A stretch of DNA of 64,000 bases from the human T2T-CHM13v2.0 reference genome, Homo sapiens: the NCBI GenBank assembly GCA_009914755.4, contig CP068257.2:6464001-6528000 (forward strand). Reading direction: 5' to 3'. Each line of letters opens with the position of its first letter. The first letter of the stretch is position 1. Under the pieces are notes generated by a model that was not told the DNA's origin, ran no database searches, and worked only from the letters and a program-made list of their open reading frames with translations. Below, piece after piece: positions 1-22,772 of this stretch. Made by a program: the position numbers and the translations under genes.

Positions 1-2499
1 TTGAATCATCCCGAGTGGAATGGAAGGGAGTGGAATGGAAGGGAGTGGAATGGAATGGAATGGAATAGAATGGAATTGAATCAATATGAGTGGAATGGAA
101 TGGAATGGAATGGAATGACATGGAAAGGAATGGAATGCAATGGAATGGAATAGAATGGAATTTAATCAACCCGAGTGGAATGGAATGGAACGGAATGGCA
201 TGGAAAGGAAAGGAATGGAATGCATTGGAATGGAAAGGAATCAACAAGAATGGAATGGAATGGAATGGAATGGAATGAAGTGAAATGCAATAGAATGGAA
301 TTGAATCAACCCGAGTGCAAAGGAATGGAATGAAATGTAATGGAAAGGAAAGGAATAGAATGGAATGGAATGGAATGGAATGGAATGGAATGGAATTGAT
401 TTGAATTAAGCTGAATGGAATGGAATGGAATGGAATAGAATGGAATTGAATCAACACGACTGTAATGGAATGGAATGGAATGCAATGCAATGGAATGGAA
501 TGGAATGGAATAGAATGGATTTGAATCAACTCCGATTGGAATGCAATAGAATGGTATACAGTGGAATGGAGTGGAATCGAATAGAATGGAATTGAATCAA
601 CCCGAGTGGAATGGAATGGAATGGAATGGAATGGAATGGAATGGAATGGAATGGAATAGAATGGAATGAATCAACCCAAGTGGAATGGAATGGCATGGAA
701 TAGAAAGGAATTGAAGGGAGTGGAATAGAATGGAATGGAATTGAATAGAATGCAATGTAATGGAATGTAATAGAATGGAATTGAATCAAACCCTGTGCAA
801 TGGAATTGAATGGAATGGAATGCAGTGGAATAGAATGGAATGGAATGGAATAGAATGGAATTGATTAAACTCGAGTGGAATGGAAAGTAATGGTGTGGAA
901 TTGAATGAAATGGTATGGAATGGAGTGGTATGGAATAGAATGGAATGGAATGGAAGGGAATAGAATGGAATTGAATCACCCAAATGGAATGGAATGGAAT
1001 GGAATGGAATGGAATAGATTGGAATGGAATAGAATGGAATTGAATCAACCTGAGTAGAATGCAATGGAATGGAAAGGAATGGAATGGAATGGAATGGAAT
1101 GGAATCAACCCGAGTGGTATGGAATGCAATGGAGTGGAATGGAATCGAAGGGAATACAATGGAATTAAATTAACCCGAGTGTAATGGAATGGAACGGAAA
1201 GGAATGGAATAGAATGGAATTCAATCAACCCAAGTGGAATGGAATGGAATTAAATGGAATGGAATTGAACGCAATGAAATGTAATGGAATGGCATGGAAT
1301 GGAATGGAGTGGAATGGAATCAACACTAGTGGAATGGAATGGAAAGGTATGGATTGGAACGGAATGGAATGGAATTGAATGGAATGGAATGGCAGGAAAT
1401 GGAATGGAATGGAACAGAATGGAAATGATTTAACACGAGTGTAATGGAATGGAATGGTATGGAATGGAGTGGAATGGAATGGAATGGAATGGAATGCAGT
1501 GGAATAGAATGGAATTGAATCAACCTGAGTGGAACAGAATGGAACGGAATGGAATGGAATGGAATGGAATGGAATGGAATGGAATAGAATGGAATTTAAT
1601 CAACCCGAGTGGAATGGAATGGAATGGAATGCAATGGAATGCATTGGAATGGAATGGATTTGAAAGGAATGGAATCAAAGCGAGTGTAATGGAATGGAAT
1701 GGCATGGAAAGGAATGGAACCAAATGGAATAGAATGAAATTGAATCAACCCAAGTGGAATGGAATAGAATGGAATGGGACGGAATAGAATGGAATGCAAT
1801 GGAATGGAATGGAATATAGTAGAATCGAATTGAATCAACCCGTGTGGAATACAATGGAATGGAATGCAGTGACATGGAATGGAATGGCATGTAATGGAAT
1901 GGAATAGAATGGAATTGAATCAACCCGAGTATAATGGAATGTAATGCAATAAAATGGCATGGAATGGAATGGCATGTAATGGAATGGAATAGAGTGGAAT
2001 GGAATCAACCCAAGTGGAATGTAATGGAAAGGAACGGAATGGAATGGAATGGAATGGAAACAACCCGAATGGAGTGGAATGGAATGGAATGGAATGGAAT
2101 GGAAGGGAATGGAATGGAATGGAGTGAAATGCAATAGAACGGAATTGAAGCAATCCGAGTGGAATGGAATGGAATGGAATGGAATGGAATGGAATGGACT
2201 GGAATGGAATGTAATGCAATAGAATGGAATTGAACTAATATGAGTGGAATGGAATGGAATGGAATGGAATAGAATGGAATTGAATCAACTGGAATGGAAT
2301 GTAATGGAATGGAATGGAAAGGAATGGAATGGATTGGAATGGAATGGAACTGAATCAACCCGAGGGTAATGGAATGTAATGAAATGTAATGGAATGGAAT
2401 GGATTGGAATGCAATGGAATGGAATGGAATGGAATGCAATGGAACGGAAGAGATTGGAAATGAATCAACACCAGTGTAATGGAATGGAATGGAATGGAA

Positions 2500-4160
2500 T
2501 GGAATGGAATGGAATGGAATGGATTTGAGTGGAATGGAATAGAATGCAATTGAATCAACCGGAGTGCAATATAATGGAAAGGAATGGAATGGAATGGAAT
2601 GGAATGGAATGGAATGGAATGGAATAGAGTGGAATGGAATGGAATGGAATAGAGTGGAATTGAAACAAACCGAGTGGAACGGAATGGAATGGAATGGAAT
2701 GGAATATAATGGAACTGAATCAAACCGAGGGGAACGGAATGGAATGGAATGGAATAGAATGGCATGGAATGGAATGGAGTGGAGTAGACTGGATATGAAA
2801 CAAACCGAGTGGAATAGAATGGAATGGAATGGAATAGAATTGAATTGAAACAAACCGAGTGGAATGGAATGGAATGCAATGGAATGGAATGGAATGGAAC
2901 TTAATAGAATGGAATTGAATCAACGCACGTGGAATGGAATGGAATGGATTGGAATGAAATGGAATGGATTGGAGTGGAATGTAATAGAACGCAATTGAAA
3001 CAACCCGATTGGAAAGGAATGGAAAGGAATGGAATGGAATGGAACAGAATGCAATTGAATCAAGCAGGAAGGAATACAATGGAATGGAGTTGAATAGAAT
3101 GGAATGGAAAATAATGGAATTGAATCAACCTGAGTGGAATGGAATGGAATGGAAAGGAATGGAATGGAATGGAACGGAGTGGAATACAAAGGAATTCAAT
3201 CAACCCAAGTGGAATGGAATGGAATGAAATGGAATGGAATGGGATGGAATGAAATTGAATGGAATGGAATGGAATCAACCCGAGTGGAATGGAATGCAAA
3301 GGAATGCATTGGAATGCAATGGCAGGGAATTGAATGGAGTGGAAATGAATGGAATGGAGTGGAATGGAATAGAATGGAATTGAATCATCTCATGTGGAAT
3401 GGAATGGAATGGAATGGAACGGATTGCATTGGAATTCAACGGATTTGAGTGGAATGAAATAGAATGCAGTTGAATCAAAACGAATGGAATGAAATGGAAT
3501 GGAAAGGTATGGAATGGAAGAGAATGTAATTGAATCAACTTGAGTGGAATGGAATGGAATGGAAAAGAATAGAATGGAATGGAATAGAATGGAATAGAAT
3601 CAAACTGAGTGGAATGGAATGGAATGGAAAGGAATGGAATGGAATACAATAAACCCAAGTGGAATGGAATGGAATGAAATGGAATGGAAGGGAATGGAAT
3701 ACAACGAAATGGAATGAATGGAATGGAATGGAATGGAAAGGAATGGAATGGAATGGATTGGAATAGAAAGAATTGAATCAATCCGAGTGGAATGGAATGT
3801 AGTGGAATGGAATGGAATGGAATGGAATGGAATGGAGTGGAGTAGATTGGATATGAAACAAACCGAGTGGAATGGAATGGAATGGAATGGAATGGAATGG
3901 AATGGAATAGAATTGAACTGAAACAAACCGAGTGGAATGGAATGGAATGCAATGGAATGGAATGGAATGGAATGGAATAGAATGGAATTGAATCAACGCA
4001 TGTGGAATGGAATGGAATGGATTGGAATGAAATGGAATGCATTGGAGTGGAATGTAATAGAACGCAGTTGAAACAATCCGATTGGAATGGAATGCAATGG
4101 AACAGAATGCAATTGAATCAACCAGGAAGGAATACAATGGAATGGAGTTTAATAGAATGG
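2500..4160 (+). repeat. Older ~1.06 kb tandem sub-repeat within HSat3 (diverged copies)
   Basis: Marker 'ggagtggagtagactggatatgaaacaaaccgagtgg' occurs at ~2771 and ~3831. ORF translations are homologous at an offset of ~1060-1075 bp (2720..3079 vs 3778..4137; 2564..2848 vs 3718..3921; 2005..2853 vs 3600..3926). Identity is clearly below that of the 3.9 kb duplication further on. Confidence 0.5.
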
Positions 4161-4821
4161 AATGGAAACTAATGGAATTGAATCAACCTTAGTGGAATGG
4201 AATGGAATGGAAAAGAATAGAATGGAATGGAATAGAATGGAATAGAATCAAACTGAGTGGAATGGAATGGAATGGAAAGGAACGGAATGGAATGGAATGG
4301 AATGGAATGGAATGGAATGGAACGGAACGGAAAGGAATACAATGGAATACAATCAACCCAAGTGGAATGGAATGGAATGAAATGGAATGGAAGGGAATGG
4401 AATGCAATGAAATGGAATGAATGTAATGGAATGGAATGGAAAGGAATGGCATGGAATGGAATGGAAAGGAATAGGATGGAATACAATCAACCCATGTGGA
4501 ATGGAATGGAATGAAATGGAATGGAAGGGAACGGAATGCAATGAAATGGAATGAATGGAATGGAATGGAATGGAATGGAATGAAATGGAACGGAATCATC
4601 CCGAGTGGAATGGTTTGCAAATGAATAGAATGGAATGGACTGGAATGGAATGGAATTGAATGGAGTGGAATGGAATGGAATGGAGTGGAATGGAATAGAT
4701 TGGAATGGAATCAAACAGAGTGGAATGGAATGGAATGGAATGGTTGGAATGCAATAGAATGGAATGGAATCAACGTGAATGGAATGGAATTGAATTGAAT
4801 GGAATGCAATTGAATGGAATG

Positions 4822-4856
4822 CATTCCATTCCCCTCCACTCGAGGGGAATGGAATG
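4822..4856. repeat. Perfect 15-bp inverted repeat (local strand switch) in the satellite: cattccattcccctc / cactc / gaggggaatggaatg
   Basis: Seen directly at 4822-4836 and 4842-4856 with a 5-nt spacer. It is the only place in 30 kb where the C-rich (ATTCC) orientation appears on the + strand. Confidence 0.8.
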
Positions 4857-7430
4857 GTTTGGAATGGAGTGAATTGCAATAGAAAGGATTTGAATGAACC
4901 CGAGGGCAGTGTAGTGGAATGGAGTGGAATGGAATTGAATGGAGTGGAATTTGGTCAACCCGAGTGTAATGTAATGGAATAGAGTGGAATGGAATGGATT
5001 TGAATTCACCCGACTGGAATGAAATGGAATGGAAAGGAATGGAAGAGAATGGAATGTATTCAACCCGTGTGGAATGGAATGGAATGGAGTGGAAACGAAT
5101 GGAACGGAACAGATAGGAATTGAATTAACCCCTGTGGAATGGAATGGAATGGAGTGGAATCGAATGGAATAGAATGGCGTGGAATAGAAAGGAATTGAAT
5201 TAACCCAAGTGGAATGGAATTGAAAGGAATGGAATGGACTGGAATGGAATGGAATGGAATGGAATAGAATGCAATTGAATCAACCCGAGTGGAATGGAGC
5301 GGAATGAAATGGAATGGAATGGAATGCAATGGAATGCAACGGAAAAGATTGGGACTGATTTAACACGAGTGGAATGGAATGGAATGGTGTGGAATAGAAT
5401 GGAATGCTATGGAATAGAGGGGAATGGAATAGAATGGAATGGAATGGAATGGAGTTGAATGGATTAGAATGGAATTGAATAAACCCTAGTGGAATGGAAT
5501 GGAATGGAAAGGAATTTATTGGAATTGAATCAACTCGAATGGAATTAAATGCAATGGAACGGAATGGAATGGAATTGAATCAACCAAAGTGGAATGGAAT
5601 GGAATGGAATGGAATGGAATGGAATAGAATGGAAAGCAATGAAATGGAAAGGAATGGAATGAAATGGAATGGATTGGAATGGAATCAATCCGAGTGCAAT
5701 GGAATGGAAAGGAATGGAATGAAAAGGAAAGGAATGGAATGGAATGGAAAGGAATGGAATGGAATAGAATGCAATTGAATAAACCCAAGTGGAATGCAAT
5801 GGAATGGAATGGTATGGAAAGGAAAGGAATGGAATGGAATAGAATGGAATGGAATCAAACCGAATGGAATGGAGTGGAATGGAATGAATTGGAATAGAAA
5901 TGTATTGCATTAACATGAGTGGAATGGAATGGAATGGAATGGAATAGAACAGAATGCAATTGAATAAACCCGAGTGGAATGGAATGGAATGGAATAGAAA
6001 GGAATGGAATGGAATAGAATGGATTTGAATCAACCCCGAGTGGAACAGAATGGGATGGGATGGAATGGAATGGAATGGAATGGAAAGGAAATGAATGGAG
6101 TGGAATAGAATGGAATGGAATGGAATTGAATGGAAAGGACTGGAATGGAACAGATAGGAATTGAAACAACCCCTGTGGAATGGAATGGAATGGAGGGGAA
6201 TCGAATGGAATGGAATGGAGTGGAATAGAAAGGAATTGAATCAACACAAGTGGAATGGAATTGAAAGGAATGGAATGGAATTGAATCAACCCGAGTGGAA
6301 TTGAAGAGAATGGAATGGAATGGAATGGAATGGAATGGAATGCAATGGAATAGAATGGAATTGAATCAACCCACGTGGTATGGAATGGAATGGAATGGAA
6401 AGGAATGGAATGGAGTGGAATAGAACGGAATGGAATGGAATGGAATGGAATACAATGGAATAGAATGCAATAGAATGGAATTAAATCAACTCCCTTGTGA
6501 AATGGAAGGGAATGGAATTGAATGGAATGGAATGGAATGGAGTGCAGTGGAATGGAATGGAAGGGAATGGAAAGGAAAGGAATGTAATGTAATGTAATGG
6601 AATGGAATCAACACGAATGGAATCAATGGAATTGAATGGAATGGAATAGAACGTAGTGAAATACAAGGGAGTGGAATTGAATCAACCCGACTGTAAAGGA
6701 ATGGAATGGAATGGAACGGAATAGAATTGAATTAAATTAACCTGAGTGGAATGGAATGGAAGGGAATGGAGTGGAATGGAATGGAATGGAATAGAATGGA
6801 ATTCAATCAACCCGAGTGGAATGTAATGTAATGGAATGGAATGGAATAGAATGGATTTGAATTAACACCGAGTGGAATGTGATGGAATGGTATGGAATGG
6901 CATGGAATGGAATGGAATGGAATGTAATTGAATGGAATGGAATAGAATGGAATTGAATCAACCAGAGTGGAATGGAATATAATGGAATGGAATGGAATGG
7001 AATGGAATGGAATGGAATGAAATGGAACAAACCCGAGTGGAATGGAATGGAATGGAATGGAATGGAATGGAATGGAATGGAACGGAATGGAATAGACTGG
7101 AATTCATTTAAAGCGAGTTTAATGGAATGGAATGGTTTGGAATGGAATGGAATGGAATGGAATGGAATGGAATGGAATGGAATGGAATATAATGGTATTT
7201 AATCCACCAGAGTGGATTGGAATGGAATGGAATGGAATGGAATGGAATGGAATGGAATGGAATGGAATGGAATGGAATTGAATGCAATGGAACAGAATGG
7301 AATCGAATCAACCCGAGAGGAATGGAATTGAATGGAATGGAATGGAATGGAATGGAATATAATGGAATTGAGTCAACCGGAGTGGAATTGAATGGAATGG
7401 AATGGAATGGAATGGAATGGAATTGAATGA

Positions 7431-10400
7431 AATGGAATGGATTGGTATAGAATGGAATTTAAACTACTCGATTGGAATGGAATGGAATGGAATGGAAAGG
7501 AATGGAATGGAATGGAATAGAATTGAATGGAATCAACCCGAGTGGAATGGAATGGAATGGAATGCAATGGAATAGAATGGAATTGAATCAACCCGTGTGG
7601 AATGGAATCGATTGGAATGGAATGGAATGGAATGGAATGGAATGGAATGGAATGGAATAGAATGGAATTGAATCAACCCGAGTGAAAAGGAATGGAGTGG
7701 AATGGAATGGAAAGGAATGGAATGGAATGGAATGGAATGGAATGGAAATGAATCAACCCGAGTGGGTTTCAATGGAATGGAATGAAAGGAAGGGAATGGA
7801 GGGGAATGGAATAGAATGGAATCGAATGGAAAGGAAAGTAATGGAATCTACCCGAGTAGAATGGAATGGAATGGAATGGAATGGAATGGAATAGAATGGA
7901 ATTGAATCAACCCGAGCAGAATGGAACGGAATGGAATTGAATGGAAAGGAATGGAATGGAATGGCATAGAATGGAATTGAATCAACCGAAATGGAATGGA
8001 ATGGAATGGAATGGAGTGGAATGGAATGGAATGGAATGGAATAGAATGGAATTGAATGAACATGAGCGGAATGGAATGGAATGGAATGGAATGGAATGGA
8101 ATTGAATCAATCCGAGTGGAGTGGAATGGAATGGCATGGAATGGAATGGAATGGAATGGAATGGAGTTAAATGGAATGCAATGGAATAGAATGGAATTGA
8201 ATCAACCAGTGTGGAATGGAATGGAATGGAATGGAATGGAATGGAATGGAATGGAGAGGAATGGAATAGAATGGAACTGAATCAACCCGAGTGGAAAGGA
8301 ATGTAATGGAATGGAATTAAATGGAAGTGAATCAACCCGAGTGGAATTAAATGGAATGGAATGGAAAGGAAGAGAATGGAATGGAATCGAATGGAAAGGA
8401 AAGTAATGGAATCGACCCGAGTAGAATGGAATGGAATGGAATGGAATAGAATGGAATTGAATCAACCCGAGTGGAATTGAACGGAATGGAATAGAATGGA
8501 ATAGAATAGAATTGAATTAACCTGAGTGGAATGGAATGGAAAAGAATGGAGTGGAATGGAATGGAATGGAATGGAATAGAATGGAATTGAATCAAGCCGA
8601 GAGGAATGTAATGTAATGTAATGGAATGGAATAGAATGGATTTGAATCAACACCGAGTGGAATGGTATGGAATGGTATGGAATGGAATGGAACGGAATGT
8701 AACTGAATGGAACGGATTAGAAAGGAATTGAATCAACCCGAGTGGAATGGAATGGAATGGAATGCAATGGAATGAAAGAGACTGGAATTCATTTAGACGG
8801 AGTTTAATGGAATGGAATGGTATGGAATGGAATGGTATGGAATGGAATGGAATGGAATGGAATGGAATGGAATGGAATGGAATATAATGGTATTTAATCA
8901 ACCCGAGTGGATCGGAATGGAATGGAATGGAATGGAACAGAATGGAATCGAATCAACCCGAGAGGAATGGAATTGAATGGAATGGAATGGAATGGAATGG
9001 AATATAATGGAATTGAGTCAACCGGAGTGGAATGGAATGGAATGGAATGGAATTGAATGAAATGGAATGGACTGGTATAGAATGGAGTTGAAACTACTCG
9101 ATTGGAATAGAATGGAATGGAATGGAATAGAATTGAATGGAATCAAACCGAGTGGAATGGAATGGAATGGAATGGAATGGAATGGAATGGAATGGAATGG
9201 AATAGAGGTAAATGGAATGCAATGGAACAGAATGGAATTGAGTCAACGCGTATGGAATGGAATGGATTGGAATGGAATGGAATGGAATGGAATAGAATGG
9301 AATTGAATCAACCCGAGTGGAAAGGAATGGAATGGAATGGAATGGAATGGAACGGAAATGAATCAACCCGAGTGGAATTCATTGGAATGGAATGGAAAAG
9401 AAGGGAATGGAGTGTAATGGAATGGAATGGAATCGAATGGAAAGGAAAGTAATGGAATCTACCCGAGTAGAATGGAATGGAATGGAATAGAACGGAATTG
9501 AATCAACCCGAGCAGAATGGAATGGAACGGAATGGAGTGGAAGGGAATGGAGTGGAATGGAATGGAATGAACACGAGTGGAATGGAATGGAATGGAATGG
9601 AATGGAATGGAATGGTTTAGAATGGAATTGAGTCAATCCAGGTGGAATGGAATGGAATGGCATGGAATGGAATAGAATGGAACTGAATCAACCCGAGTGG
9701 AATGGAATGGAATGGAATGGCATGGAATGGAATGGAAGGGAATGGAATGGAATGGAATGGAATGCAATGGAATTGAATCAACCCGAGTGAAATGGAATGG
9801 AATGGAATGGAAAGCGAAGGGATGGAATGGAATGGAATGGAATGGAATCAACCCGAATGGAATGCAGTGGAATAGAATGCTATGGGGTGGAATGGAATGG
9901 AATGGATTGCAATGTAATGAAATGCAATAGAATGGAATTGAATCAACCCAAGTGGAATGGAATGGAATGCAATGGAATGGAATCGAATGCGATAGAATTG
10001 AATTGAATTAACCTGAATGGAATGGAATGGAATGGAATGCAATGGAATGGAATTGAATCAACCCGAGTGGAATGGAATGGATTGGAATGGAATGGAAGGG
10101 AATGGAATGGAATAGAAATGAACCAACCCGAGTGGAATGGAATGGAAAGGAATGGAATGTAATGGAATGCAATGGAATGCAATGGAATGGAATGGAATGG
10201 AATGGAATGGAATGGAATGGAATGGATTGGAATGTGGTGGAATGGAATAGACTGGAGTTGAATCAACCCGAGTGGAATGGAATGGAATGAAATGGAATGG
10301 AATGGAATCAACCCGAGTGGAAAGGAATGGAATGGAATACAATTCAATGGAATGGAATGGAATGGAATGGAATCAACCCGAATGGAATGGAATGGAATTG

Positions 10401-11304
10401 AATGGAATGGAATGGAATAAAGTGGAATGGAATTTAATTAACCTTAGTGGAATGCAATGGAATGGATTGGAATGGAATGGAATGGAATGGAATCAATCCC
10501 AGTGGAATGGAAAGGCATGGATTGGAATGGAATAGAATGGAATGCAATGGAATGGAATGGAATGGAATGGAATGGATTGGAATGCAATGGAATGGAATGG
10601 AATGGAATGGAATGGAATGGATTGGAATGCAATGGAATGGAATGGAATGGAATGGATTGGAATGTAATGGAATGGTGTAGAATGGAATTGAAACAACTCG
10701 ATTGGAATGCAGTGGAATGTAATGGAATGGAATGGAATGGAATGGAATGGAATGGAATGGATTGGAATGGAATAGAATGGGATTGTATCCACCCGAATGG
10801 AATGGAATTGAATGGAATGGAATGGTATGCAATGGAAAAGAATGGAATTGAATCAACCCGTCTGGAATGGCATGGAATGGAAGGGAATGGAATGGAATGG
10901 AAGGGAATGGAAAGGAATAGAATGCAATTGAATCAACTCGAATGGAATGGAATGGAATGGAATCGAATTGAATCAACCCGAGTGGAATGGAATGGAATGG
11001 AACAGAATGGAATGGAATGGAATGGAAAGGAATGGAATAGAACGGAATTGAATCAACCTGAGTGGAATGGAAAGCAATGGAATGGAATGGAGTGGAATGG
11101 AATGGAATGGAGTGGAATGGAATGGAACGGATTGGAATGGAATGGAATGGAATGGAACGGATTGGAATGGAATGGAATGGAATGGAATGTATTTGAATGG
11201 AATTGAATCAACCCGAGTGGAATGGAATGGAATAGCATGGAATGGAATGGAATAGAATGGAATGGAATGGAATGGAATGGAATGGAATGGAATGGAATGG
11301 AATG
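7431..11304 (+). repeat. HSat3 higher-order repeat, copy 1 of a near-identical ~3.9 kb tandem duplication
   Basis: Dozens of ORF translations are identical to those in copy 2 at a constant offset of 3885 bp, for example 7682..7894=11567..11779, 8056..8280=11941..12165, 9094..9366=12979..13251, 9797..10006=13682..13891, 10272..10535=14157..14420. Line-by-line comparison (e.g. 8641-8760 vs 12526-12645) is identical. The offset changes only by multiples of 5 bp (3874, 3885, 3890), i.e. pentamer-count indels. Confidence 0.85.
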
Positions 11305-14300
11305 AAATGGAATGGATTGGTATAGAATGGAATTTAAACTACTCGATTGGAATGGAATGGAATGGAATGGAAAGGAATGGAATGGAATGGAATAGAATTG
11401 AATGGAATCAACCCGAGTGGAATGGAATGGAATGGAATGGAATGGAATGCAATGGAATAGAATGGAATTGAATCAACCCGTGTGGAATGGAATCGATTGG
11501 AATGGAATGGAATGGAATGGAATGGAATGGAATGGAATGGAATAGAATGGAATTGAATCAACCCGAGTGAAAAGGAATGGAGTGGAATGGAATGGAAAGG
11601 AATGGAATGGAATGGAATGGAATGGAATGGAAATGAATCAACCCGAGTGGGTTTCAATGGAATGGAATGAAAGGAAGGGAATGGAGGGGAATGGAATAGA
11701 ATGGAATCGAATGGAAAGGAAAGTAATGGAATCTACCCGAGTAGAATGGAATGGAATGGAATGGAATGGAATGGAATAGAATGGAATTGAATCAACCCGA
11801 GCAGAATGGAACGGAATGGAATTGAATGGAAAGGAATGGAATGGAATGGCATAGAATGGAATTGAATCAACCGAAATGGAATGGAATGGAATGGAATGGA
11901 GTGGAATGGAATGGAATGGAATGGAATAGAATGGAATTGAATGAACATGAGCGGAATGGAATGGAATGGAATGGAATGGAATGGAATTGAATCAATCCGA
12001 GTGGAGTGGAATGGAATGGCATGGAATGGAATGGAATGGAATGGAATGGAGTTAAATGGAATGCAATGGAATAGAATGGAATTGAATCAACCAGTGTGGA
12101 ATGGAATGGAATGGAATGGAATGGAATGGAATGGAATGGAGAGGAATGGAATAGAATGGAACTGAATCAACCCGAGTGGAAAGGAATGTAATGGAATGGA
12201 ATTAAATGGAAGTGAATCAACCCGAGTGGAATTAAATGGAATGGAATGGAAAGGAAGAGAATGGAATGGAATCGAATGGAAAGGAAAGTAATGGAATCGA
12301 CCCGAGTAGAATGGAATGGAATGGAATGGAATAGAATGGAATTGAATCAACCCGAGTGGAATTGAACGGAATGGAATAGAATGGAATAGAATAGAATTGA
12401 ATTAACCTGAGTGGAATGGAATGGAAAAGAATGGAGTGGAATGGAATGGAATGGAATGGAATAGAATGGAATTGAATCAAGCCGAGAGGAATGTAATGTA
12501 ATGTAATGGAATGGAATAGAATGGATTTGAATCAACACCGAGTGGAATGGTATGGAATGGTATGGAATGGAATGGAACGGAATGTAACTGAATGGAACGG
12601 ATTAGAAAGGAATTGAATCAACCCGAGTGGAATGGAATGGAATGGAATGCAATGGAATGAAAGAGACTGGAATTCATTTAGACGGAGTTTAATGGAATGG
12701 AATGGTATGGAATGGAATGGTATGGAATGGAATGGAATGGAATGGAATGGAATGGAATGGAATGGAATATAATGGTATTTAATCAACCCGAGTGGATCGG
12801 AATGGAATGGAATGGAATGGAACAGAATGGAATCGAATCAACCCGAGAGGAATGGAATTGAATGGAATGGAATGGAATGGAATGGAATATAATGGAATTG
12901 AGTCAACCGGAGTGGAATGGAATGGAATGGAATGGAATTGAATGAAATGGAATGGACTGGTATAGAATGGAGTTGAAACTACTCGATTGGAATAGAATGG
13001 AATGGAATGGAATAGAATTGAATGGAATCAAACCGAGTGGAATGGAATGGAATGGAATGGAATGGAATGGAATGGAATGGAATGGAATAGAGGTAAATGG
13101 AATGCAATGGAACAGAATGGAATTGAGTCAACGCGTATGGAATGGAATGGATTGGAATGGAATGGAATGGAATGGAATAGAATGGAATTGAATCAACCCG
13201 AGTGGAAAGGAATGGAATGGAATGGAATGGAATGGAACGGAAATGAATCAACCCGAGTGGAATTCATTGGAATGGAATGGAAAAGAAGGGAATGGAGTGT
13301 AATGGAATGGAATGGAATCGAATGGAAAGGAAAGTAATGGAATCTACCCGAGTAGAATGGAATGGAATGGAATAGAACGGAATTGAATCAACCCGAGCAG
13401 AATGGAATGGAACGGAATGGAGTGGAAGGGAATGGAGTGGAATGGAATGGAATGAACACGAGTGGAATGGAATGGAATGGAATGGAATGGAATGGAATGG
13501 TTTAGAATGGAATTGAGTCAATCCAGGTGGAATGGAATGGAATGGCATGGAATGGAATAGAATGGAACTGAATCAACCCGAGTGGAATGGAATGGAATGG
13601 AATGGCATGGAATGGAATGGAAGGGAATGGAATGGAATGGAATGGAATGCAATGGAATTGAATCAACCCGAGTGAAATGGAATGGAATGGAATGGAAAGC
13701 GAAGGGATGGAATGGAATGGAATGGAATGGAATCAACCCGAATGGAATGCAGTGGAATAGAATGCTATGGGGTGGAATGGAATGGAATGGATTGCAATGT
13801 AATGAAATGCAATAGAATGGAATTGAATCAACCCAAGTGGAATGGAATGGAATGCAATGGAATGGAATCGAATGCGATAGAATTGAATTGAATTAACCTG
13901 AATGGAATGGAATGGAATGGAATGCAATGGAATGGAATTGAATCAACCCGAGTGGAATGGAATGGATTGGAATGGAATGGAAGGGAATGGAATGGAATAG
14001 AAATGAACCAACCCGAGTGGAATGGAATGGAAAGGAATGGAATGTAATGGAATGCAATGGAATGCAATGGAATGGAATGGAATGGAATGGAATGGAATGG
14101 AATGGAATGGATTGGAATGTGGTGGAATGGAATAGACTGGAGTTGAATCAACCCGAGTGGAATGGAATGGAATGAAATGGAATGGAATGGAATCAACCCG
14201 AGTGGAAAGGAATGGAATGGAATACAATTCAATGGAATGGAATGGAATGGAATGGAATCAACCCGAATGGAATGGAATGGAATTGAATGGAATGGAATGG

Positions 14301-15190
14301 AATAAAGTGGAATGGAATTTAATTAACCTTAGTGGAATGCAATGGAATGGATTGGAATGGAATGGAATGGAATGGAATCAATCCCAGTGGAATGGAAAGG
14401 CATGGATTGGAATGGAATAGAATGGAATGCAATGGAATGGAATGGAATGGAATGGAATGGATTGGAATGCAATGGAATGGAATGGAATGGAATGGAATGG
14501 AATGGATTGGAATGCAATGGAATGGAATGGAATGGAATGGATTGGAATGTAATGGAATGGTGTAGAATGGAATTGAAACAACTCGATTGGAATGCAGTGG
14601 AATGTAATGGAATGGAATGGAATGGAATGGAATGGAATGGAATGGAATGGATTGGAATGGAATAGAATGGGATTGTATCCACCCGAATGGAATGGAATTG
14701 AATGGAATGGAATGGTATGCAATGGAAAAGAATGGAATTGAATCAACCCGTCTGGAATGGCATGGAATGGAAGGGAATGGAATGGAATGGAAGGGAATGG
14801 AAAGGAATAGAATGCAATTGAATCAACTCGAATGGAATGGAATGGAATGGAATCGAATTGAATCAACCCGAGTGGAATGGAATGGAATGGAACAGAATGG
14901 AATGGAATGGAATGGAAAGGAATGGAATAGAACGGAATTGAATCAACCTGAGTGGAATGGAAAGCAATGGAATGGAATGGAGTGGAATGGAATGGAATGG
15001 AGTGGAATGGAATGGAACGGATTGGAATGGAATGGAATGGAATGGAACGGATTGGAATGGAATGGAATGGAATGGAATGTATTTGAATGGAATTGAATCA
15101 ACCCGAGTGGAATGGAATGGAATAGCATGGAATGGAATGGAATAGAATGGAATGGAATGGAATGGAATGGAATGGAATGGAATGGAATGG
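11305..15190 (+). repeat. HSat3 higher-order repeat, copy 2 of the ~3.9 kb tandem duplication
   Basis: See copy 1. The junction at 11250-11304 lies in a pure (GGAAT)n run. Copy 2 differs by small indels, e.g. a frame difference near 14640 compared with ORF 10457..11206. Confidence 0.85.
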
Positions 15191-16030
15191 AATAGACTGG
15201 AATTCATTTAAACCGAGTGTAATGGAATGGAATGGTATGGAATGGAATGGAATGGTATGGAATGGAATGGAATGGTATGGAATAGAATGGAATGGAATGG
15301 AATGGAATGGAATATAATGGTATTTAATCAACCCGAGTGGATCGGAATGGAATGGAATGGAATGGAACAGAATGGAATCGAGTCAACCCAAGAGGAACGG
15401 AATTGAATGGAATTGAATGGAATGGAAAGGAATGGAATGGAATGGAATATAATGGAAATGAGTCAACTGGAGTGGAATAGAATGGAATGGAATGGAATGG
15501 ATTGGAATGGAATGGAATGGAAAGGAATGAAATGGAATGGAGTGGTATAGAATGGAATTGAAACTACTCGATTGGAATGGAATGGAATGGAATAGACTTG
15601 AATGGAATCAACCCTAGTGGAATGGAATGGAATGGAATGGAATCAAATAGAATGGAGGTGAATGGAATGCAATGGAATAGAATGGAATTGAATCAACCCA
15701 TGTGGAATGGAATGGATTGGACTGGAATGGAACGGAATGGAACGGAATAGAATGGAATTGAATCAACCATAGTGGAAAGGAATGGAATGGAATGGAATGG
15801 AAATGAATCAACACGAGTGGAATTCATTGGAATGGAATGGAAAGGAAGGGAATTGAGTGGAATGGAATGGAATGGAGTGGAATGGAATGGAATCAAATGG
15901 AAAGGAAAGTAATGGAATCGACCCAAGTAGAATGGAATAGAATGGCATAGAATGGAATTGAATCAACCCGAGCGGAATTGAACGGAATTGAAGGGAATGG
16001 AATGGAATGGAACGGAATGGAATGGAATCA
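15191..16030 (+). repeat. Diverged partial copy of the HOR sub-unit (homologous to 8771-9500 and 7085-7470)
   Basis: Shared markers: 'gactggaattcattta[ag]a[cg]cgagt[gt]taatggaatggaatggtatgg', 'aatataatggtatttaatcaacccgagtggatcggaatgg', 'gaaactactcgattggaat', and 'gaaagtaatggaatcgacccaagtagaatgg' at 15901. There are numerous substitutions. Confidence 0.5.
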
Positions 16031-16400
16031 ACGCAAGTGGAATGGAATGGAATGGTTGGACCACAATAGATTGAAATCGAACCAACACGAGTGGAATGGA
16101 ATGGAATTGAATGGAATGCAATAGAATGGAATGGAATCCACTAGAGTGGAATGGAATGGAATGGAGTGGAGTGCAATGGAGTGTGGTGGAATGCAATGGA
16201 GTGGAGTGGAATAGAATGGAGTAGGGTGGAATTCACTGGAACGGAGTGGAATGTACTGGATTTGACTGGAATGGAGTTGAGTGGAGTGGAATGGAGTTGA
16301 CTGGAGTGGCATGGAATGGAGTGGAGTGGAGTGCAATGGAATACAGTAGACTGGAGTGGAGTGAATTGGTGTTGAATGGAAAGGAATGGAATGAAATGGA

Positions 16401-16462
16401 TACTTAGATTGTGCCACTGCACTAAAACCTGTGTGACAGTAGGGGAACCTGTCGAAAGAAAG
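16401..16462 (+). repeat. Embedded Alu-tail fragment, variant 2 (GATTGTGCCACTGCACTAAAACCTGTGTGACAG...CTGTCGAAAGAAAGG)
   Basis: Seen directly. Variant-2 copies (CAGCCTGTGTGAC, followed by GGAGTGGAATGGGA) lie at ~16406, 16748, 17695, 18186, 21098, 21842, 24118 and 24813. Confidence 0.8.
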
Positions 16463-18631
16463 GAGTGGAATGGGAAGGAGTGTAGTGTAGTGGAGTGGAG
16501 TGGAGTGGAATTGGAGATTAATATAATGGAGTGGAGTGGAATGGAATGGAGTGGAGTGGAATGGATTGCAGGGGAGTGGGGTGGAGAGCAGTGGAATGGA
16601 GTGGAGTGGAATGGAATGGAATGGAATGGAATGGAGTGGTCTGGAATGGAATGGAGTTGCGTGGAGTGGAGTTCAGTGGACTTGAATGGAATGGAATGGA
16701 ACTGAGTGAAATGGAATGGAATGGAATTGGTGCTGAGATTGTGCCACTGCGCTACAACCTGTGTGATAGAGGGAGATCCTGTCAAAAGAAAGAATTCGAA
16801 TGGGAAGAAGTGGAGTGGATTGGAGTTGAGTGGAATGGAATGGAATTGATTGGAGTGAAATGGAATGGAATGAATGGTAAAGGAATGGAATGGAGTGGAG
16901 TATGGTGGAATGGAATGGAGTGGAGCGTAGTGAAGTGCAGTTGAGTGGAATGGATTGGAGTGGAGTGAAATGCAGTGGAAAGGAGTTGAGCGCAATTTAC
17001 CGGAAAGCAGTGGAATGGAATGGGGAGGAATGGAAAGGCATGGAGTAGAATGGAGTGTAGTGGATTGGAGTGGAGTGGAATTGACTGGAGTGGACTGGAG
17101 TGCATTGGAGTTGGGTGGAATGGAATGGAATTCAATGGCCTGCAGTGGAATGGAATGCAGTGGTGTTGAGTGTAGTGGAGTGGAATGGAACAGAATGGAA
17201 TGGAATGGAAAGGAGGAGTGGAGTGGAGTGGAATTCAGTGGAGTGGATTGCAGTGGAATGGAATGGAATGGATTGGAATGGAGATGAGTGGAGTTGAAAG
17301 AAGTGGAGTGGAATGGAGTGCAGAGGAGTGGATAGGAGTGCAATGGATTGCAGTGGAATGGAATGGCATAAAGTGGAGTGGAATTTAGTGGAATGGAGTG
17401 GAATGGACTGGACTGGAATGGAATGGAATGGAGTGGAGTGGAATGGAATGGAGTGGAGTGGAATGGAATAGAGTGGAGTGGAGTGGAATGCAGTGGCGTG
17501 GAGTGGAATAGAGTGAAGAGGAGTGGATGTAGTGAAGTGAAGTGGAATGAAATGGGGTGGAGTGGAGTGGAATTGAATGGATTGGAGTGGAGTGCAAAGG
17601 AGTCGAATGGAAACGGATGCAAAGGAATGTAGTGGAATGGAGTGGATTTGACTGGAATGGAATGGAATGGAATGGAATGGAATGGAATCGCTGTTGAGAT
17701 CGTGTCACTGTGCTACAGACTGTGTGACAGAGGGAGATCCTCTGGAAAGAAAGGAGTGGAATGGGATGGTGTCGAGTGGATTGCAGTGGAGTGGAGTGAA
17801 ATGGAGTGGAATGGATTGGTGTGGAGTGTAATGGAGTGGAGTGGAGTGGACTGGAATGGAGTGGATTGGGTTGGAATGGAGTGCAGTGGAGTGGAATCAA
17901 GTGGAATGGAATGGGGTGGAGTGTGGTGGAATGGAATGGATTGGATTGGAGTGGAGTGGAGTGGAGCTTAATGTTATGGAGTGGAGTGGAATGGATTGGA
18001 ATGGACTGGAATGGAATGGATTGGAGTGGAGTGGAGAGCAGTGGAGTGGAGTGGAGTGGAATGGAATGGAATGGAGTGGCATGCAGTGGAGTGGAAGGGA
18101 GTGGAGTGGACTGGAGTGGAAAGGAGGTGAATGAAATGGAATGGAATGGAATGGAATGGAATGGAATGGAATGGAATGGGTGATGAGATTGTGCCACTGC
18201 ATCAAAACCTGTGTGACAGAGGGAGATCCTGTCAAAAGAAAGAATTGTAATCGGAAGCAGTGGAGTGGATTGGAGTTGAGTGAAACGGAATGGAATGGAG
18301 TGGAGTGGAGTGGAATGGAGTGGAGTGGAGTTGAATGGAATGTGGTGGAGTGGAATGAAGTCGAGTGGAATGGAGTGGAATGGAATGTGATGGAATGGAA
18401 TGGAATGGATTATGGTGGAGTGGAGTGGATTGAAGTGGAGTAGAGTGGATTGTAGTGGAATGAAATGGGATGGAATGGAATGCCATCGAGTGCAGTGGAG
18501 TGGAGTGGACTGGAGTGGAGGAGAGTGGAATGGAGTCGAGTGGAATAGAATGGAGTGGAACAGAATGGAATGGAATGCAATGGAATGGAATGCAAAGGAA
18601 TGGAATGCAATTAAATAGAATGGAATGGAAT

Positions 18632-18710
18632 GGTGAAATGAAATGTGAGCTGAATTGGTGCCACTGCACGCCAGCCTGGGTGACAGAGTGAGATGCTGTC
18701 GAAAGAAAGA
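18632..18710 (+). repeat. Embedded Alu-tail fragment, variant 1 (GGTGAAATGAAATGTGAGCTGA..GTGCCACTGCAC.CCAGCCTGGGTGACAGAGTGAGAT.CTGTCGAAAGAAAG)
   Basis: Seen directly. It is near-identical to the copy at 26039-26118, 7.4 kb downstream. Variant-1 copies lie at ~18966, 19492, 19858, 20218, 20406, 20612, 20828, 22450, 22773, 23217, 23400, 23601, 23832, 25390, 25660, 26060, 26378, 26856, 27228, 27385, 27797, 28168, 28647, 28995, 29400 and 30208. Confidence 0.8.
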
Positions 18711-19857
18711 AATGGAATGGAATGGAGTGGAGTGGAGTGGTGTGGAGTGGAGTGGTGTGGAGTGGAATGGAATGGGATGGACTATAATGGAATGGATTGC
18801 TGTGGATTGGAGTGGTGGAGAGTGGAATGGAGTCGAGTGGAATGGAATGGAATGGACTGGAGTGGAATGCAGTGGAATGGAATGGAAAGGAGTGGAGTGG
18901 AGTGCAGTGGAGTGGAGTGGAGTGGAATGGAATGGAATGGATTAGCGAAATGAAATGTAAGCTGAGATTATGTCACTGTACTCCAGAATGGGTGACAGAG
19001 TGACATCCTGTGGAATGTAAGGAATGGAATGGATTGGAGTGGAATGGTTTGGAATGTAGTGGAGTGGATAGGAGTGAAGTGGAGTAGAATAGAGTGGAGA
19101 GGAATGGAATGGCAGGGAGTGGATAGGAGTGGACGGGAGTGGAGTAGAATATAATGGAATGGGATGGAATCGAATGGAATGAAATGGAGGGGAGTGGAGT
19201 GTTGGGGAGAGGAGTGGAGTGGTATGGAATTGGATGGAATTGAATGTAGAGGAGTGGAGTGGAGAGGAGTGGAGTAGAGTGGATTGGTATGGAATTGGAT
19301 GGAATTGAATGTAGAGGAGTGGAGTGGAGAGGAGTGGAGTAGAGTGGAGTGGAATGGAACGAAATTGAATGAAGTGGAGCCAAGTGGAGTGGACTGGAGT
19401 GGAGTGGAATGGAATATAGTGGAATGGAAACGAATGGAATGGAAAGGAATGTAATGCAATTGAATGGAATGATAAAATGAAATATGAGTTGAGATTGTAA
19501 CACTGCACTCCAGCCATTGTCACAGAGTGAAATACTGTCGAAAGAAAGGAATGGAATGGACAGGTGTGGAATGGAATGGAATGGAGCGGAGTGGAGTGGA
19601 TTATAGTGGAATGGAGTGGAATGGAATGGGATGGAATGGGATGGAGTGGAGTGGAGTGGAGTGTAATGGAACGGTATGGTATGGTAAGGAACGGAATGGA
19701 ATGGAATGGAATGGAATGCAGTGGAGTGGAGTGGAGTTCGCAGGAGTGGAATTAAATGGGATGGAATAGAATTGAATGCATTGCAATGGAATGGAATGCA
19801 ATGGAATGAAATGCAATGGAATGCAATGGAATGGAATGTTGAATTGAAATGTGAGCT

Positions 19858-22772
19858 GAGATACTGCCACTGCACTCCAGCCTGGGTGACAGAGTGAGAT
19901 CCTCTCGAATGAGAGGAATGGAATGGAATGGAGTGAAGTGGAATGGAATGGAATGGAATGGAATGGAATGGAATGGAATGGAGTGGAGTGGAGTGGAATG
20001 GAATAGAATGGAGTGGAATGGAATGTGATGGAGTGGAAGGAATGGAGTGGAGGGGAGTGGAGTGGACGGGAGTGGAGTGGAGAGAAATGGAGTGAAATGG
20101 AATGGGATGGAATGGAATGGGGGAGGGGAGGGGAGTGGAGTGGAATTGAGTGTAGTGGGATAGAATGGAATGGAAAGGAAAGAAATACAATGGAATGGTG
20201 AAATGAAATGTGAGCTGAGATTGTGCCCCTGTATTCCAGCCATTTTTGACACAGTGATATCCCGTCGGAAGAAGGGAATGGAATGGAATGGGGTGGAATG
20301 GAATGGAATGGAATGGAATGGGGTTTAATGGAATGGAATGGAATGGAATGGAATGGAATGGAATGGAATGGAATGGAATGGAATGGAGAAATTAAATGTG
20401 AGCTAAGATTGTGCCACTGCACTCCAGTCTGGGTGACAGAGAGAGATCCATTTAGAAATAAAGGAATGGAATGGAATGTAGTAGAATGGAATGACTGGAG
20501 TGGCGTGGAGTGGAGTGGAGTGGCGTGGAGTGGAGTTGAGTGGAGTGGAGTGGAAAGGAATTTAGGGGAATGGAATGGAATGGAATGGAATGGTGAAATG
20601 AAATGTGAGCTGGGATTTTGTAATTGCACTCCATTTTGGGTGACAGAGTGAGATCCTGTCGAAAGAAAATATTGGAATGGAATGGAGTGTAGTGGAATTG
20701 AAAAGAATGGAGTGGACTGGAGTGGAGTGGAGTGGAATGGAATGGAAGGGAATGGAATGGAATGGAATGGAAGGGAAAGGAAAGGAATGGAATGGAAGGT
20801 AAGGGAATGGGGAAATGAAATGTGAGCTGACATTGTGGCACTGCACTCCAGCCTCGGTGACCGAGTGAGATCCTGTCGAAAGAAAATATTGGAATGGAAT
20901 GGAGTTCAATGTAACGGAATAGAGTAAAGTGGAGTGGAACGGAATGTGATGGAATGAAATGTAGTGGAGTGGAGTAGAGTGGAACGGAATGGAGTGGAGT
21001 GGAGTGGAATGGAGTGGAGTGCAGTGGAGTGGAGTGCAGTGGAATTCATTGGAATGGAATGCAGTGGAATGGAATGAAAAGGAATTTAACAGGTGCTGAG
21101 ATTGTGCTACTGCACTACAGCCTGTGTGACAGAGGTAGATCCTGTCGAAAAATAGGCGTGCAATGGGTTGGAGCAGAGTGGAGTGGAGTGGAATGGAGTG
21201 GAGTGGAGTGGACTGGAGTGGAGTGGAATGGAATGAAGTGGAGTGGAATGGACTGGAGTGGAATGGAATGGAATGGAGTGGAATGGAATGGAATGCAGTG
21301 GAGTGGAGTGGAACGGACTGGAGTGGAGTGGAATGGAGTGGAGTGGAGTAGAGTGGAATGGGGTGGAGAGGAGTGGAGTGGAGTGGAATGGAATGGAATG
21401 CAATGCAATGCAGTGGAGTGGAGTGGAATGGAGTGGCATGGAATGGAATGGAGTGGAGTGGAATGGAATGGATTGCAGTGGAGTGGAATGGAATGGAGTG
21501 GAGTGGAATGGACTGAAGTGAAATGGAATCGAATGGAGTGGAATGGAATGGAGTGGAGTGGAGTGGAGAGGAATGGAATGGAATGGAATGGAATGGAATG
21601 GAATGGAATGGATGGAATGCAATTATGTGGAGCGGAACACAGTGGAGAGGAGTGGAAAGGAATGGAATGGAATAGAGTGGAGTGGATTGCAGTGAAGTGG
21701 AGAAAAGTGCAATGTAGTGGAATGGAATCAGATGTAATGGAATGTAGTACACTGGAGTGGAGTGAAGTGGAACGAACAGGAATGGAACGGAATGGAACGG
21801 AACAGAATGGAACAGAACGGAACGGAATGGAATGGGTGCTGAGATTGTGCCACTGCACTACAGCCTGCATGACAGAGAGAGATATTGTAGAAAGAAAGGA
21901 GTGGAATGGGATGGGGGAAGTGGAGTTTAGTGGAGTGGAATGGAGTGGAGTTGAATGGACTGGAATGGAGTGGAGTGGAGTGGAACGGAATGCAGTGGAG
22001 TGGAATGGAGTGGAGTGGAATGGAGTAGAGTGGAGTGGAGTGGAATTCGGTGGAGTGGAATGGAGTAGAATGGAATGCAATGGAATGGAATGGAGTCGAC
22101 TGGATTGGTGTGGAGTGGAATGAAGTGGATTGAAGTAGAATTAGCGGAATGGAATGGGATGGAATGGAATGGAATGAAGGGGAGTGGAGTGGGGTGGAGT
22201 GGAGTGCAGTGGAATTGAGCGGAATGGAATGGGATGGAGTGGATGGAGTGGAATGGAGTGGAGCGCAGTAGAGTGAATAGGAATGGAATGGAGTGGAATG
22301 GAATTGAATGTAGTGGAATGTAGTGGAGTGGAGTGGAATGGAGTGGGATGGAATGGAATTGAATTGAATGGAATGGAATTGAACGGAATGCAATGGAATG
22401 CAATGGAATAGTATGCAATGCAATGGAAAGTTGACATGTAATGTGAGCTGAGATTGTGCCACTGTACTCCAGCCTCGGTGATACAGTGATATCCTGTCAA
22501 AAGAAAGGAATGGAATGCAATGGAGTGAAATGGAATGGAAGGGAAGGGAATGGAATGCAGGCGAGTGGAGTGGAGTGGAGTTGAATGGAATGGTATGGTA
22601 TGGAATGGAATGGAATGGAATGCAGTGGAGTGGAGTGGAGCTCGCAGGACTGGAATGGAATGGGATGGAATGGAATTGAATGCATTACAGTGGAATGGAA
22701 TGCAATGGAAAGGAATGAAATGACATGCAATGGAACGGAATAGAATGGAATGGAATGGTGAAATGAAATTTG
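19858..22772 (+). repeat. Copy 1 of a ~2.9-3.0 kb tandem duplication within the composite satellite
   Basis: The Alu-fragment series at 19858/20218/20406/20612/20828/21098/21842/22450 matches the series at 22773/23217/23400/23601/23832/24118/24813/25390 (offsets 2915-3020). The intervening text is homologous, e.g. ORF 20283..20651 ('...NGEIKCELRLCHCTPVWVTERDP...') vs 23091..23438 ('...NGEIKCELRLCQCPPVRITD'), and the (GGGGA)n blocks at 20119 and 23108. Confidence 0.7.

What the first reader, a model, noticed from the sequence alone, without database searches (positions are those of the whole stretch)
7085..15570. Near-identical ~3.9 kb tandem duplication (higher-order repeat) in HSat3 with breakpoints in pure (GGAAT)n runs
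Blocks 7431-11304 and 11305-15190 are essentially identical. Many ORF translations are identical at a 3885-bp offset, and the only differences spotted are 5-bp-multiple indels. By contrast, the first 6.5 kb of the array and the flanks carry only diverged homology.

A ~350-bp segment (7085-7430, 'gactggaattcattta...gaaactactcgattgg') precedes copy 1 and recurs after copy 2 (15191-15570), but not between the copies. The copy junction (11250-11304) and the corresponding outer boundaries (7380-7420, 15140-15185) are uninterrupted (GGAAT)8-11 runs.

This is the expected footprint of a recent unequal crossover within perfect pentamer tracts. It may represent the local HOR period of this array. HOR length and sequence are chromosome-specific in HSat3.
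Basis: seen in the sequence. Interest (0 to 1): 0.6.

Follow-up and report, generated by a model that had tools for sequence, protein, structure and literature searches.

The report
Recent 3.9 kb duplication in HSat3
A 3.9 kb stretch of a primate (most likely human) pentamer satellite has been copied once, head to tail, so recently that the two copies differ by no base substitutions; this is real but an ordinary example of how satellite DNA grows.

Summary
Window 7429-11303 (3875 bp) and 11304-15193 (3890 bp) are direct tandem copies. They show 0 substitutions over 3879 aligned bases. The only differences are two pentamer-run length changes: (GGAAT)4 vs 6, and (GGAAT)7 vs 8. Every other offset in this satellite gives 75-78% identity, and no third copy exists in the 64 kb window.

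The exchange point lies at the 3' edge of a 38/39-bp homology: (GGAAT)6-TGAAT on the left against (GGAAT)9 on the right. An ancestral T at 7424 confines it to 4 bp.

The best explanation is one recent out-of-register, homology-mediated exchange or template switch between pentamer runs. It probably happened less than about 32,000 generations ago.

The suggestion that 3.9 kb is the local HOR period is not supported. With copy 2 removed, the array shows no 3.9 kb signal, only weak old periods of about 0.6, 1.05, 1.65, 2.5 and 4.2 kb. The duplicated unit spans roughly two older diverged sub-units.

The flanking "X" module is also present inside each copy.

Hyper-local kb-scale expansion in HSat2,3 is already described in the T2T work. 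An assembly artefact cannot be excluded without reads. Interest is low.

The parts
1..16150 (+). Array 1: HSat3-type satellite, with the GGAAT strand on +. It runs off the left edge of the window.
   Evidence: 1633 GGAAT and essentially no ATTCC in 16.15 kb. TRF finds period 5 with consensus TGGAA. There are 53 CAACCCGA[AG]T decamers here and none elsewhere in the window.
7094..7428 (+). Head of X module copy X1 (AGACTGGAATTCATTTAAA...). This is the left flank and is not duplicated.
   Evidence: Marker positions and a four-way alignment of the X modules.
7390..7428 (+). Left homology tract GAAT(GGAAT)6-TGAAT. T7424 marks the left edge of identity.
   Evidence: It matches the right-end run at 38/39 positions when the ends are aligned. 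TGAAT is shared with internal module X2, so the T predates the duplication.
7429..11303 (+). Copy 1 of the duplicated unit (3875 bp). The start has a 4-bp GAAT ambiguity (7425-7428).
   Evidence: 0 mismatches against copy 2 over 3879 aligned bp.
11259..11303 (+). Junction run (GGAAT)9, followed directly by GAAAT, the first pentamer of the unit.
   Evidence: Sequence read directly. It has the same length as the right-end run and lacks the TGAAT of the left flank.
11304..15193 (+). Copy 2 of the duplicated unit (3890 bp).
11419..11448 (+). Run (GGAAT)6 in copy 2 against (GGAAT)4 at 7544-7563 in copy 1. This is the 10-bp difference.
14609..14648 (+). Run (GGAAT)8 in copy 2 against (GGAAT)7 at 10724-10758 in copy 1. 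This is the 5-bp difference.
8780..9105 (+). X module copy X2 inside copy 1. Its duplicate lies at 12665-12990 in copy 2. It marks the boundary between two older sub-units within the duplicated unit.
   Evidence: Marker GACTGGAATTCATTTA occurs at 7095, 8780, 12665 and 15195. Alignment A1.
15149..15193 (+). Right-end run (GGAAT)9. This is the ancestral right homology tract.
15194..15575 (+). X module copy X3, forming the right flank. It is followed by a diverged partial copy of the unit's 5' part up to about 16150.
   Evidence: The stretch 7094-8060 against 15194-16160 scores z=3.25 over 150 in-register control segments.

Best explanation
This is a genuine, evolutionarily very young, two-copy tandem duplication inside an HSat3-type pentamer satellite at the edge of a primate (most likely human) pericentromeric block.

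**Ancestral arrangement.** X1 - (GGAAT)6 TGAAT - unit - (GGAAT)9 - X3.

**Proposed event.** A DNA 3' end carrying the (GGAAT)9 run at the end of the unit paired out of register with the (GGAAT)6-TGAAT tract 3.9 kb upstream, on the sister chromatid, the homologue or the same template. The unit was then copied or joined a second time. The pairing could have occurred during unequal sister-chromatid or homologue exchange, or during a replication template switch or break-induced repair. The result is unit - (GGAAT)9 - unit with no filler.

**Later change.** Only two pentamer runs have since slipped, by +2 and +1 units.

**Consequence.** No function is implied. The event simply adds 3.9 kb to the array and could seed a new kb-scale nested repeat if amplified further.

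**Shown versus inferred.** Shown: the duplication, its exactness, the junction anatomy, and the lack of any array-wide 3.9 kb period. Inferred: the molecular pathway and the age.
For: - Two copies show 0 substitutions in 3879 bp with two in-run indels, against a 75-78% background.
- They form the only such repeat in 64 kb.
- The junction is clean and lies at the 3' edge of a 38/39-bp shared tract. Homology drops to background immediately downstream, at 58% over 50 bp.
- T7424 is shared with the older paralogous module X2 and is therefore ancestral. The junction carries G and a full 9-unit run identical in length to the right-end run. The switch point is therefore confined to the last 4 bp, as expected if the end of the run primed or was joined at the homology edge.
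- Runs of n>=6 cover only 9.4% of the array, so breakpoints at two runs are not chance.
- Zero differences give a 95% upper bound of 7.7e-4 per site. That is less than about 32,000 generations at 1.2e-8 per bp per generation, a rate taken from my own knowledge.
- Hyper-local expansion of kb-scale units in HSat2,3 is reported for T2T-CHM13 (10.1101/2021.07.12.452052).
- The G-rich pentamer strand folds into non-canonical hairpins in vitro (PMC11014236). This is a plausible cause of fork stalling, but that link is inference only.
Against: - No read-level data are available, so a false assembly duplication is not excluded.
- No other genome could be compared, so copy number in other haplotypes and the reciprocal one-copy allele are unknown.
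- Perfect homology at the exchange point is short (34 + 4 bp), which is below what classical mammalian homologous recombination prefers (my own knowledge).
- The pathway (crossover, template switch or break-induced replication) is not resolved by the sequence.
- The array continues beyond the left edge of the window, so more copies further away cannot be ruled out.
Confidence: 0.85

Rival explanations
1. Assembly artefact. A single 3.9 kb unit was falsely written twice, for example through a mis-resolved overlap or two haplotype alleles joined in tandem.
For: Perfect base identity over 3.9 kb is what a false duplication would give. If two alleles had been joined, differences limited to short-tandem-repeat lengths would be plausible. 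No reads are available.
Against: - The copies are not identical in length. Two runs differ, by 10 and 5 bp.
- The junction is a biologically sensible homology-edge join rather than an arbitrary point.
- The whole 7.8 kb structure is shorter than typical long reads, so it is easy to resolve. This last point is inference, because the sequencing platform is unknown.
Confidence: 0.07
2. The two copies are part of an established array-wide HOR or nested tandem repeat of about 3.9 kb.
For: kb-scale chromosome-specific units exist in HSat2,3: DYZ1 at 3.6 kb, chr1 HSat2 at 1.77 kb and pTRS-47 at 1366 bp (PMC4022460). The array extends beyond the left edge of the window.
Against: - There are only two copies.
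- The 7 kb to the left and the 1 kb to the right align to the unit at background identity.
- With copy 2 removed there is no 3.9 kb peak in rare k-mer spacings.
- The flanking older paralogy has a different period of 4215 bp.
Confidence: 0.04
3. An old duplication whose copies were later homogenised by gene conversion.
For: Conversion is a recognised homogenising force in satellites (PMC7767330).
Against: - Identity is perfect across the entire 3.9 kb and stops exactly at the tandem junction and outer ends, with no gradient.
- Mammalian conversion tracts are usually much shorter than 3.9 kb (my own knowledge).
- The older repeat layer has X modules between units, unlike this junction.
Confidence: 0.03

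Closest known systems
Hyper-local expansion of nested tandem repeats (NTRs) in HSat2,3 arrays, as described for T2T-CHM13 (10.1101/2021.07.12.452052)
   Same: Both involve a kb-scale unit made of diverged pentamers that is duplicated locally inside an HSat3 array. In both, the copies are far more alike than the surrounding array.
   Different: Here there are only two copies, so this is at most the first step of such an expansion. No period is established.
Unequal crossover model of satellite evolution (Smith 1976; Kurnit 1979, cited in PMC4022460)
   Same: Direct tandem duplication with both breakpoints in short shared repeats and no filler sequence.
   Different: The perfect homology at the exchange point is only 34 + 4 bp, and the switch lies at the very edge of it. 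This fits template switching or break-induced replication at least as well as a reciprocal crossover.
DYZ1 (HSat3A6), the 3.6 kb HSat3 repeat unit of Yq12
   Same: A pentamer-based unit of similar length (3.6 against 3.9 kb).
   Different: DYZ1 is present in thousands of copies. Its top subfamily-specific 24-mer is absent from array 1 even with 2 mismatches. Array 1 carries the CAACCCGAGT decamer and resembles the HSat3B marker 24-mers instead.

Membership tests
Human satellite 3 (HSat3) | Array built from the (GGAAT)n / (CATTC)n pentamer with strong strand asymmetry | tested here: met
   1633 GGAAT in 16.15 kb and 0-2 ATTCC per kb on the + strand. TRF finds period 5 with consensus TGGAA.
Human satellite 3 (HSat3) | Interspersed decamer CAACCCGA(A/G)T. 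This is the classical satellite III definition of Prosser et al. 1986, recalled from my own knowledge. | tested here: met
   53 copies in array 1, 0 in array 2 and 0 in the non-satellite part.
Human satellite 3 (HSat3) | [quoted passage not shown] | tested here: inconclusive
   Only the 14 top 24-mers of Table 1 could be tested, and none matches exactly. The HSat3B2 24-mer matches 26 times at 1 mismatch, and the HSat3B1 24-mer matches 16 times at 2 mismatches. The stored full list is truncated to HSat2A1.
Human satellite 3 (HSat3) | Pericentromeric location on a human chromosome | not testable with these tools
   No human reference is available. The flank contains at least 9 Alu elements and a retroviral pol fragment, so the host is a primate.
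HOR / nested tandem repeat array | Many tandem copies with one constant period across the array | tested here: not met
   There are two copies only, and no 3.9 kb signal remains after copy 2 is removed.
HOR / nested tandem repeat array | Identity between units far above identity between the sub-repeats inside a unit | tested here: met
   100% between the copies, against a 75-78% background and 82-91% for the older paralogous patches.
Tandem duplication by unequal homologous exchange | Head-to-tail copies, no spacer, breakpoints in sequence shared by both ends | tested here: met
   Junction (GGAAT)9|GAAAT. There is a 38/39 match between the left and right tracts, and homology is lost immediately 3' of the switch.
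Tandem duplication by unequal homologous exchange | Reciprocal one-copy (deletion) allele, or copy-number polymorphism in the population | not testable with these tools
   No other primate assemblies could be searched. Marker scans of the metagenome and prokaryote genome collections found nothing.
DYZ1 / HSat3A6 | 3.56 kb period and HSat3A6-specific 24-mers | tested here: not met
   The period here is 3875-3890 bp. The top HSat3A6 24-mer has 0 hits in array 1 at up to 2 mismatches.

The most novel reading that the evidence does not exclude
The pair is the caught-in-the-act seed of a new nested repeat unit. It would be a copy-number-polymorphic two-copy allele, created by break-induced or template-switch replication primed at the edge of a hairpin-prone (GGAAT)9 run. 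Its dimer-of-older-units structure (X-headed sub-units of about 1.7 and 2.5 kb) would show how longer periods are built stepwise in HSat3.
Probability: 0.15. Interest if true: 0.3.

Novelty: already known. Interest (0 to 1): 0.12.

Why it matters
It matters little beyond serving as an illustration. It gives a base-pair-resolved example of how pentamer satellites gain length, with the switch point confined to 4 bp at the edge of a pure pentamer run. It also gives a datable event: no substitutions and two run-length slips. If the locus can be placed on a human chromosome, the one-copy versus two-copy state could serve as a structural marker for that pericentromeric haplotype. It does not reveal a new kind of element or mechanism.

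Tried and rejected
- **The repeat finder on 6500-16200.** The output was swamped by the pentamer background, with hundreds of 60-80% 'copies', so it was uninformative. It did report no inverted repeats of at least 300 nt.
- **Megablast of the window against itself.** Internal matches were culled under the full-length self hit. I replaced this with k-mer offset counting.
- **TRF.** Its maximum period is 500, so it cannot see a 3.9 kb unit. It only confirms the pentamer.
- **Rfam at gathering thresholds.** It found nothing.
- **Exact scans for locus-specific markers.** I ran two scans of metagenome contigs and one of genome contigs, hoping for human-contaminant contigs. All gave 0 hits, so no independent copy of the junction was obtained.
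- **Subfamily assignment with the Altemose 24-mers.** Only the Table 1 top 24-mers were usable. The stored full list is cut off within HSat2A1.
- **Literature search for the decamer string.** It returned only unrelated primer sequences.
- **DYZ1 identity.** I considered and rejected it, because the period and the marker 24-mer do not fit.
- **The X modules as the recombining repeats.** I considered and rejected this, because the junction contains no X head and the left breakpoint lies inside X1, just before its last ~50 bp.
Full report
**Context**

The window has three parts.
- Positions 1 to about 16150 are a dense pentamer satellite. It holds 1633 GGAAT on the + strand and almost no ATTCC, and TRF reports period 5. 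It also carries 53 copies of the decamer CAACCCGA[AG]T, which occurs nowhere else in the window. From my own knowledge, this is the classical satellite III / HSat3 signature.
- Positions about 16150 to 30480 are a second, G+C-richer array.
- From 30497 onward the sequence is non-satellite. It has at least 9 Alu elements and a retroviral RT/RNase H fragment.

The source is therefore a primate, most likely human, and the window covers the edge of a pericentromeric block. No human reference was available, so the chromosome is unknown. None of the 14 top subfamily 24-mers of Altemose 2014 (PMC4022460) matches exactly. The nearest is the HSat3B2 marker, with 26 hits at one mismatch. I can therefore only call array 1 'HSat3B-like'.

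Yes.
- Exact 40-mer matches pile up at offsets 3885 (3139), 3890 (532) and 3875 (101). The next offset has 64.
- The exact blocks are 7425-7564, 7543-10761 and 10721-11303 against their partners.
- Global alignment gives 118 + 3178 + 583 = 3879 aligned bases with no mismatch. There are two insertions in copy 2, of 10 bp and 5 bp.
- Both insertions are unit-number changes in pure runs: 4 vs 6 units at 7544/11419, and 7 vs 8 units at 10724/14609. The other 56 of 58 pure runs have identical lengths.
- The same query aligns at only 75-78% at any other offset in the array.
- No other long near-identical repeat, direct or inverted, exists in the 64 kb.

Chance is not a candidate explanation.

**Junction anatomy**

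- The left flank reads ...GGAGT GGAAT TGAAT (GGAAT)6 TGAAT | GAAAT GGAAT GGATT GGTAT...
- The junction reads (GGAAT)9 | GAAAT GGAAT GGATT GGTAT...
- The right end reads (GGAAT)9 | AGACT GGAAT TCATT....

When the tract ends are aligned, the two ancestral breakpoint regions match at 38 of 39 positions: 4 bp, then the T7424/G mismatch, then 34 bp. They match at 46/50 upstream. Downstream identity falls at once to 58% over 50 bp.

The TGAAT pentamer before GAAAT is also present in the older paralogous module inside the unit, X2. The T therefore predates the duplication. The junction carries G and a run exactly as long as the right-end run. The switch is thus confined to the final GAAT of the shared tract, unless a heteroduplex mismatch was repaired to G.

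Pure runs of at least 6 units occupy 9.4% of the de-duplicated array. Two breakpoints abutting such runs is therefore roughly a 1% coincidence, and the runs very probably mediated the event.

**Older structure and the X segment**

AGACTGGAATTCATTTAAA occurs only at 7094 and 15194 and is absent from the junction.

The slightly shorter marker GACTGGAATTCATTTA also occurs at 8780 and 12665, that is, inside each copy. A four-way alignment shows one module family with copies X1, X2, X2-duplicate and X3. X3 shares two long exact markers with X2 that X1 lacks.

The left breakpoint lies inside X1, just before its last ~50 bp.

In de-duplicated coordinates the modules are 1686 and 2529 bp apart, summing to 4215 bp. 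This agrees with the weak old diagonals at about 1610-1645, 2525-2585 and 4200-4225 bp, and with finer ones near 0.55-0.6 and 1.05 kb.

The stretch after X3 is a diverged partial copy of the unit's 5' part. It is 90.9% identical in aligned columns, against 86.1% for controls, with z=3.25.

The 3.9 kb unit therefore spans about two older, diverged sub-units. The arrangement is X1-U1-X2-U2 | (tail of X1)-U1-X2-U2 | X3-...

**Is 3.9 kb the array's period?**

No evidence supports this. There are only two copies. The 7 kb to the left and the remainder to the right align at background identity. Rare k-mer spacings in the de-duplicated array show no 3.9 kb peak.

The T2T centromere study names kb-scale units of HSat2,3 'nested tandem repeats'. 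[quoted passage not shown] This pair is the minimal case of that behaviour.

**Mechanism**

What is shown is a clean head-to-tail join at the 3' edge of a short near-perfect homology between two pentamer runs 3.9 kb apart.

What is inferred is out-of-register pairing of the run at the end of the unit with the run before it, followed by exchange or re-copying. Three routes give this product:
- reciprocal unequal crossover, the classical model (Smith 1976, via PMC4022460);
- a replication template switch;
- one-ended strand invasion (break-induced replication).

A switch exactly at the homology edge that retains the invading run's G is what trimming a non-homologous 3' tail back to the last paired base would produce. 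I therefore lean slightly toward an invasion or template-switch route, but the sequence cannot decide.

(ATGGA)4 folds into a non-canonical hairpin in vitro (PMC11014236). This makes fork stalling at pure runs plausible, but the link to this event is speculation.

**Age**

Zero substitutions in 3879 sites give a 95% upper bound of 7.7e-4 differences per site. That corresponds to less than about 32,000 generations at 1.2e-8 per site per generation, and less if satellites mutate faster (the rate is from my own knowledge). Two run-length slips among 58 runs per copy fit a young age.

**Rivals**

- Assembly artefact. It cannot be excluded without reads. The unequal run lengths and the sensible junction argue against it.
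- Established HOR/NTR. The tests described above argue against it within the window.
- Conversion-homogenised old duplicate. This is unlikely, because identity is perfect over the full 3.9 kb and ends exactly at the junctions, and because the older layer has X heads between units.

**Verdict**

This is an ordinary, well-understood kind of event in satellite DNA, so novelty and interest are low.

Noticed in passing
window 16150-30480: A second satellite array of mixed GGAGT/GGAAT pentamers, with G+C of 0.45-0.49 and no CAACCCGA decamers. It contains at least 20 irregularly spaced fragments of ~50-65 bp that match the 3' end (positions ~224-288) of an Alu consensus. This agrees with the report that HSat3 repeat units often include fragments of old transposable elements.
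   Followed up: partly
window 19941-22379 vs 22930-25356; 18347-19264 vs 25760-26676: Array 2 has its own older internal duplications. One pair is 86% identical at an offset of about 2989 bp, and another is 91.6% identical at an offset of about 7413 bp. Neither is recent.
   Followed up: partly
window 30480-30740: The satellite ends directly against a 5'-truncated Alu (consensus positions 58-288, 81.5% identity) with a poly-A tail. This marks the boundary between satellite and unique sequence.
   Followed up: partly
window 60233-60574 (+): An ORF fragment with reverse transcriptase and RNase H domains (Pfam RNase_H, E=9e-9). It is an endogenous retrovirus pol remnant, adjacent to a cluster of Alu elements in both orientations at 60983-63644.
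   Followed up: partly
window 1-30480: Both satellite arrays keep a single polarity, with the G-rich strand on +, over 30 kb. There are no strand switches.
   Followed up: no
window 62667-62756: A short self-complementary TA/CA-rich microsatellite. It is the only inverted match found in the window.
   Followed up: no
window 7094-16150: Array 1 shows nested old periodicities of about 0.55-0.6, 1.05, 1.6-1.7, 2.5 and 4.2 kb at 82-91% identity. They are marked by the recurring X module at 7094, 8780 (with its duplicate at 12665) and 15194.
   Followed up: partly
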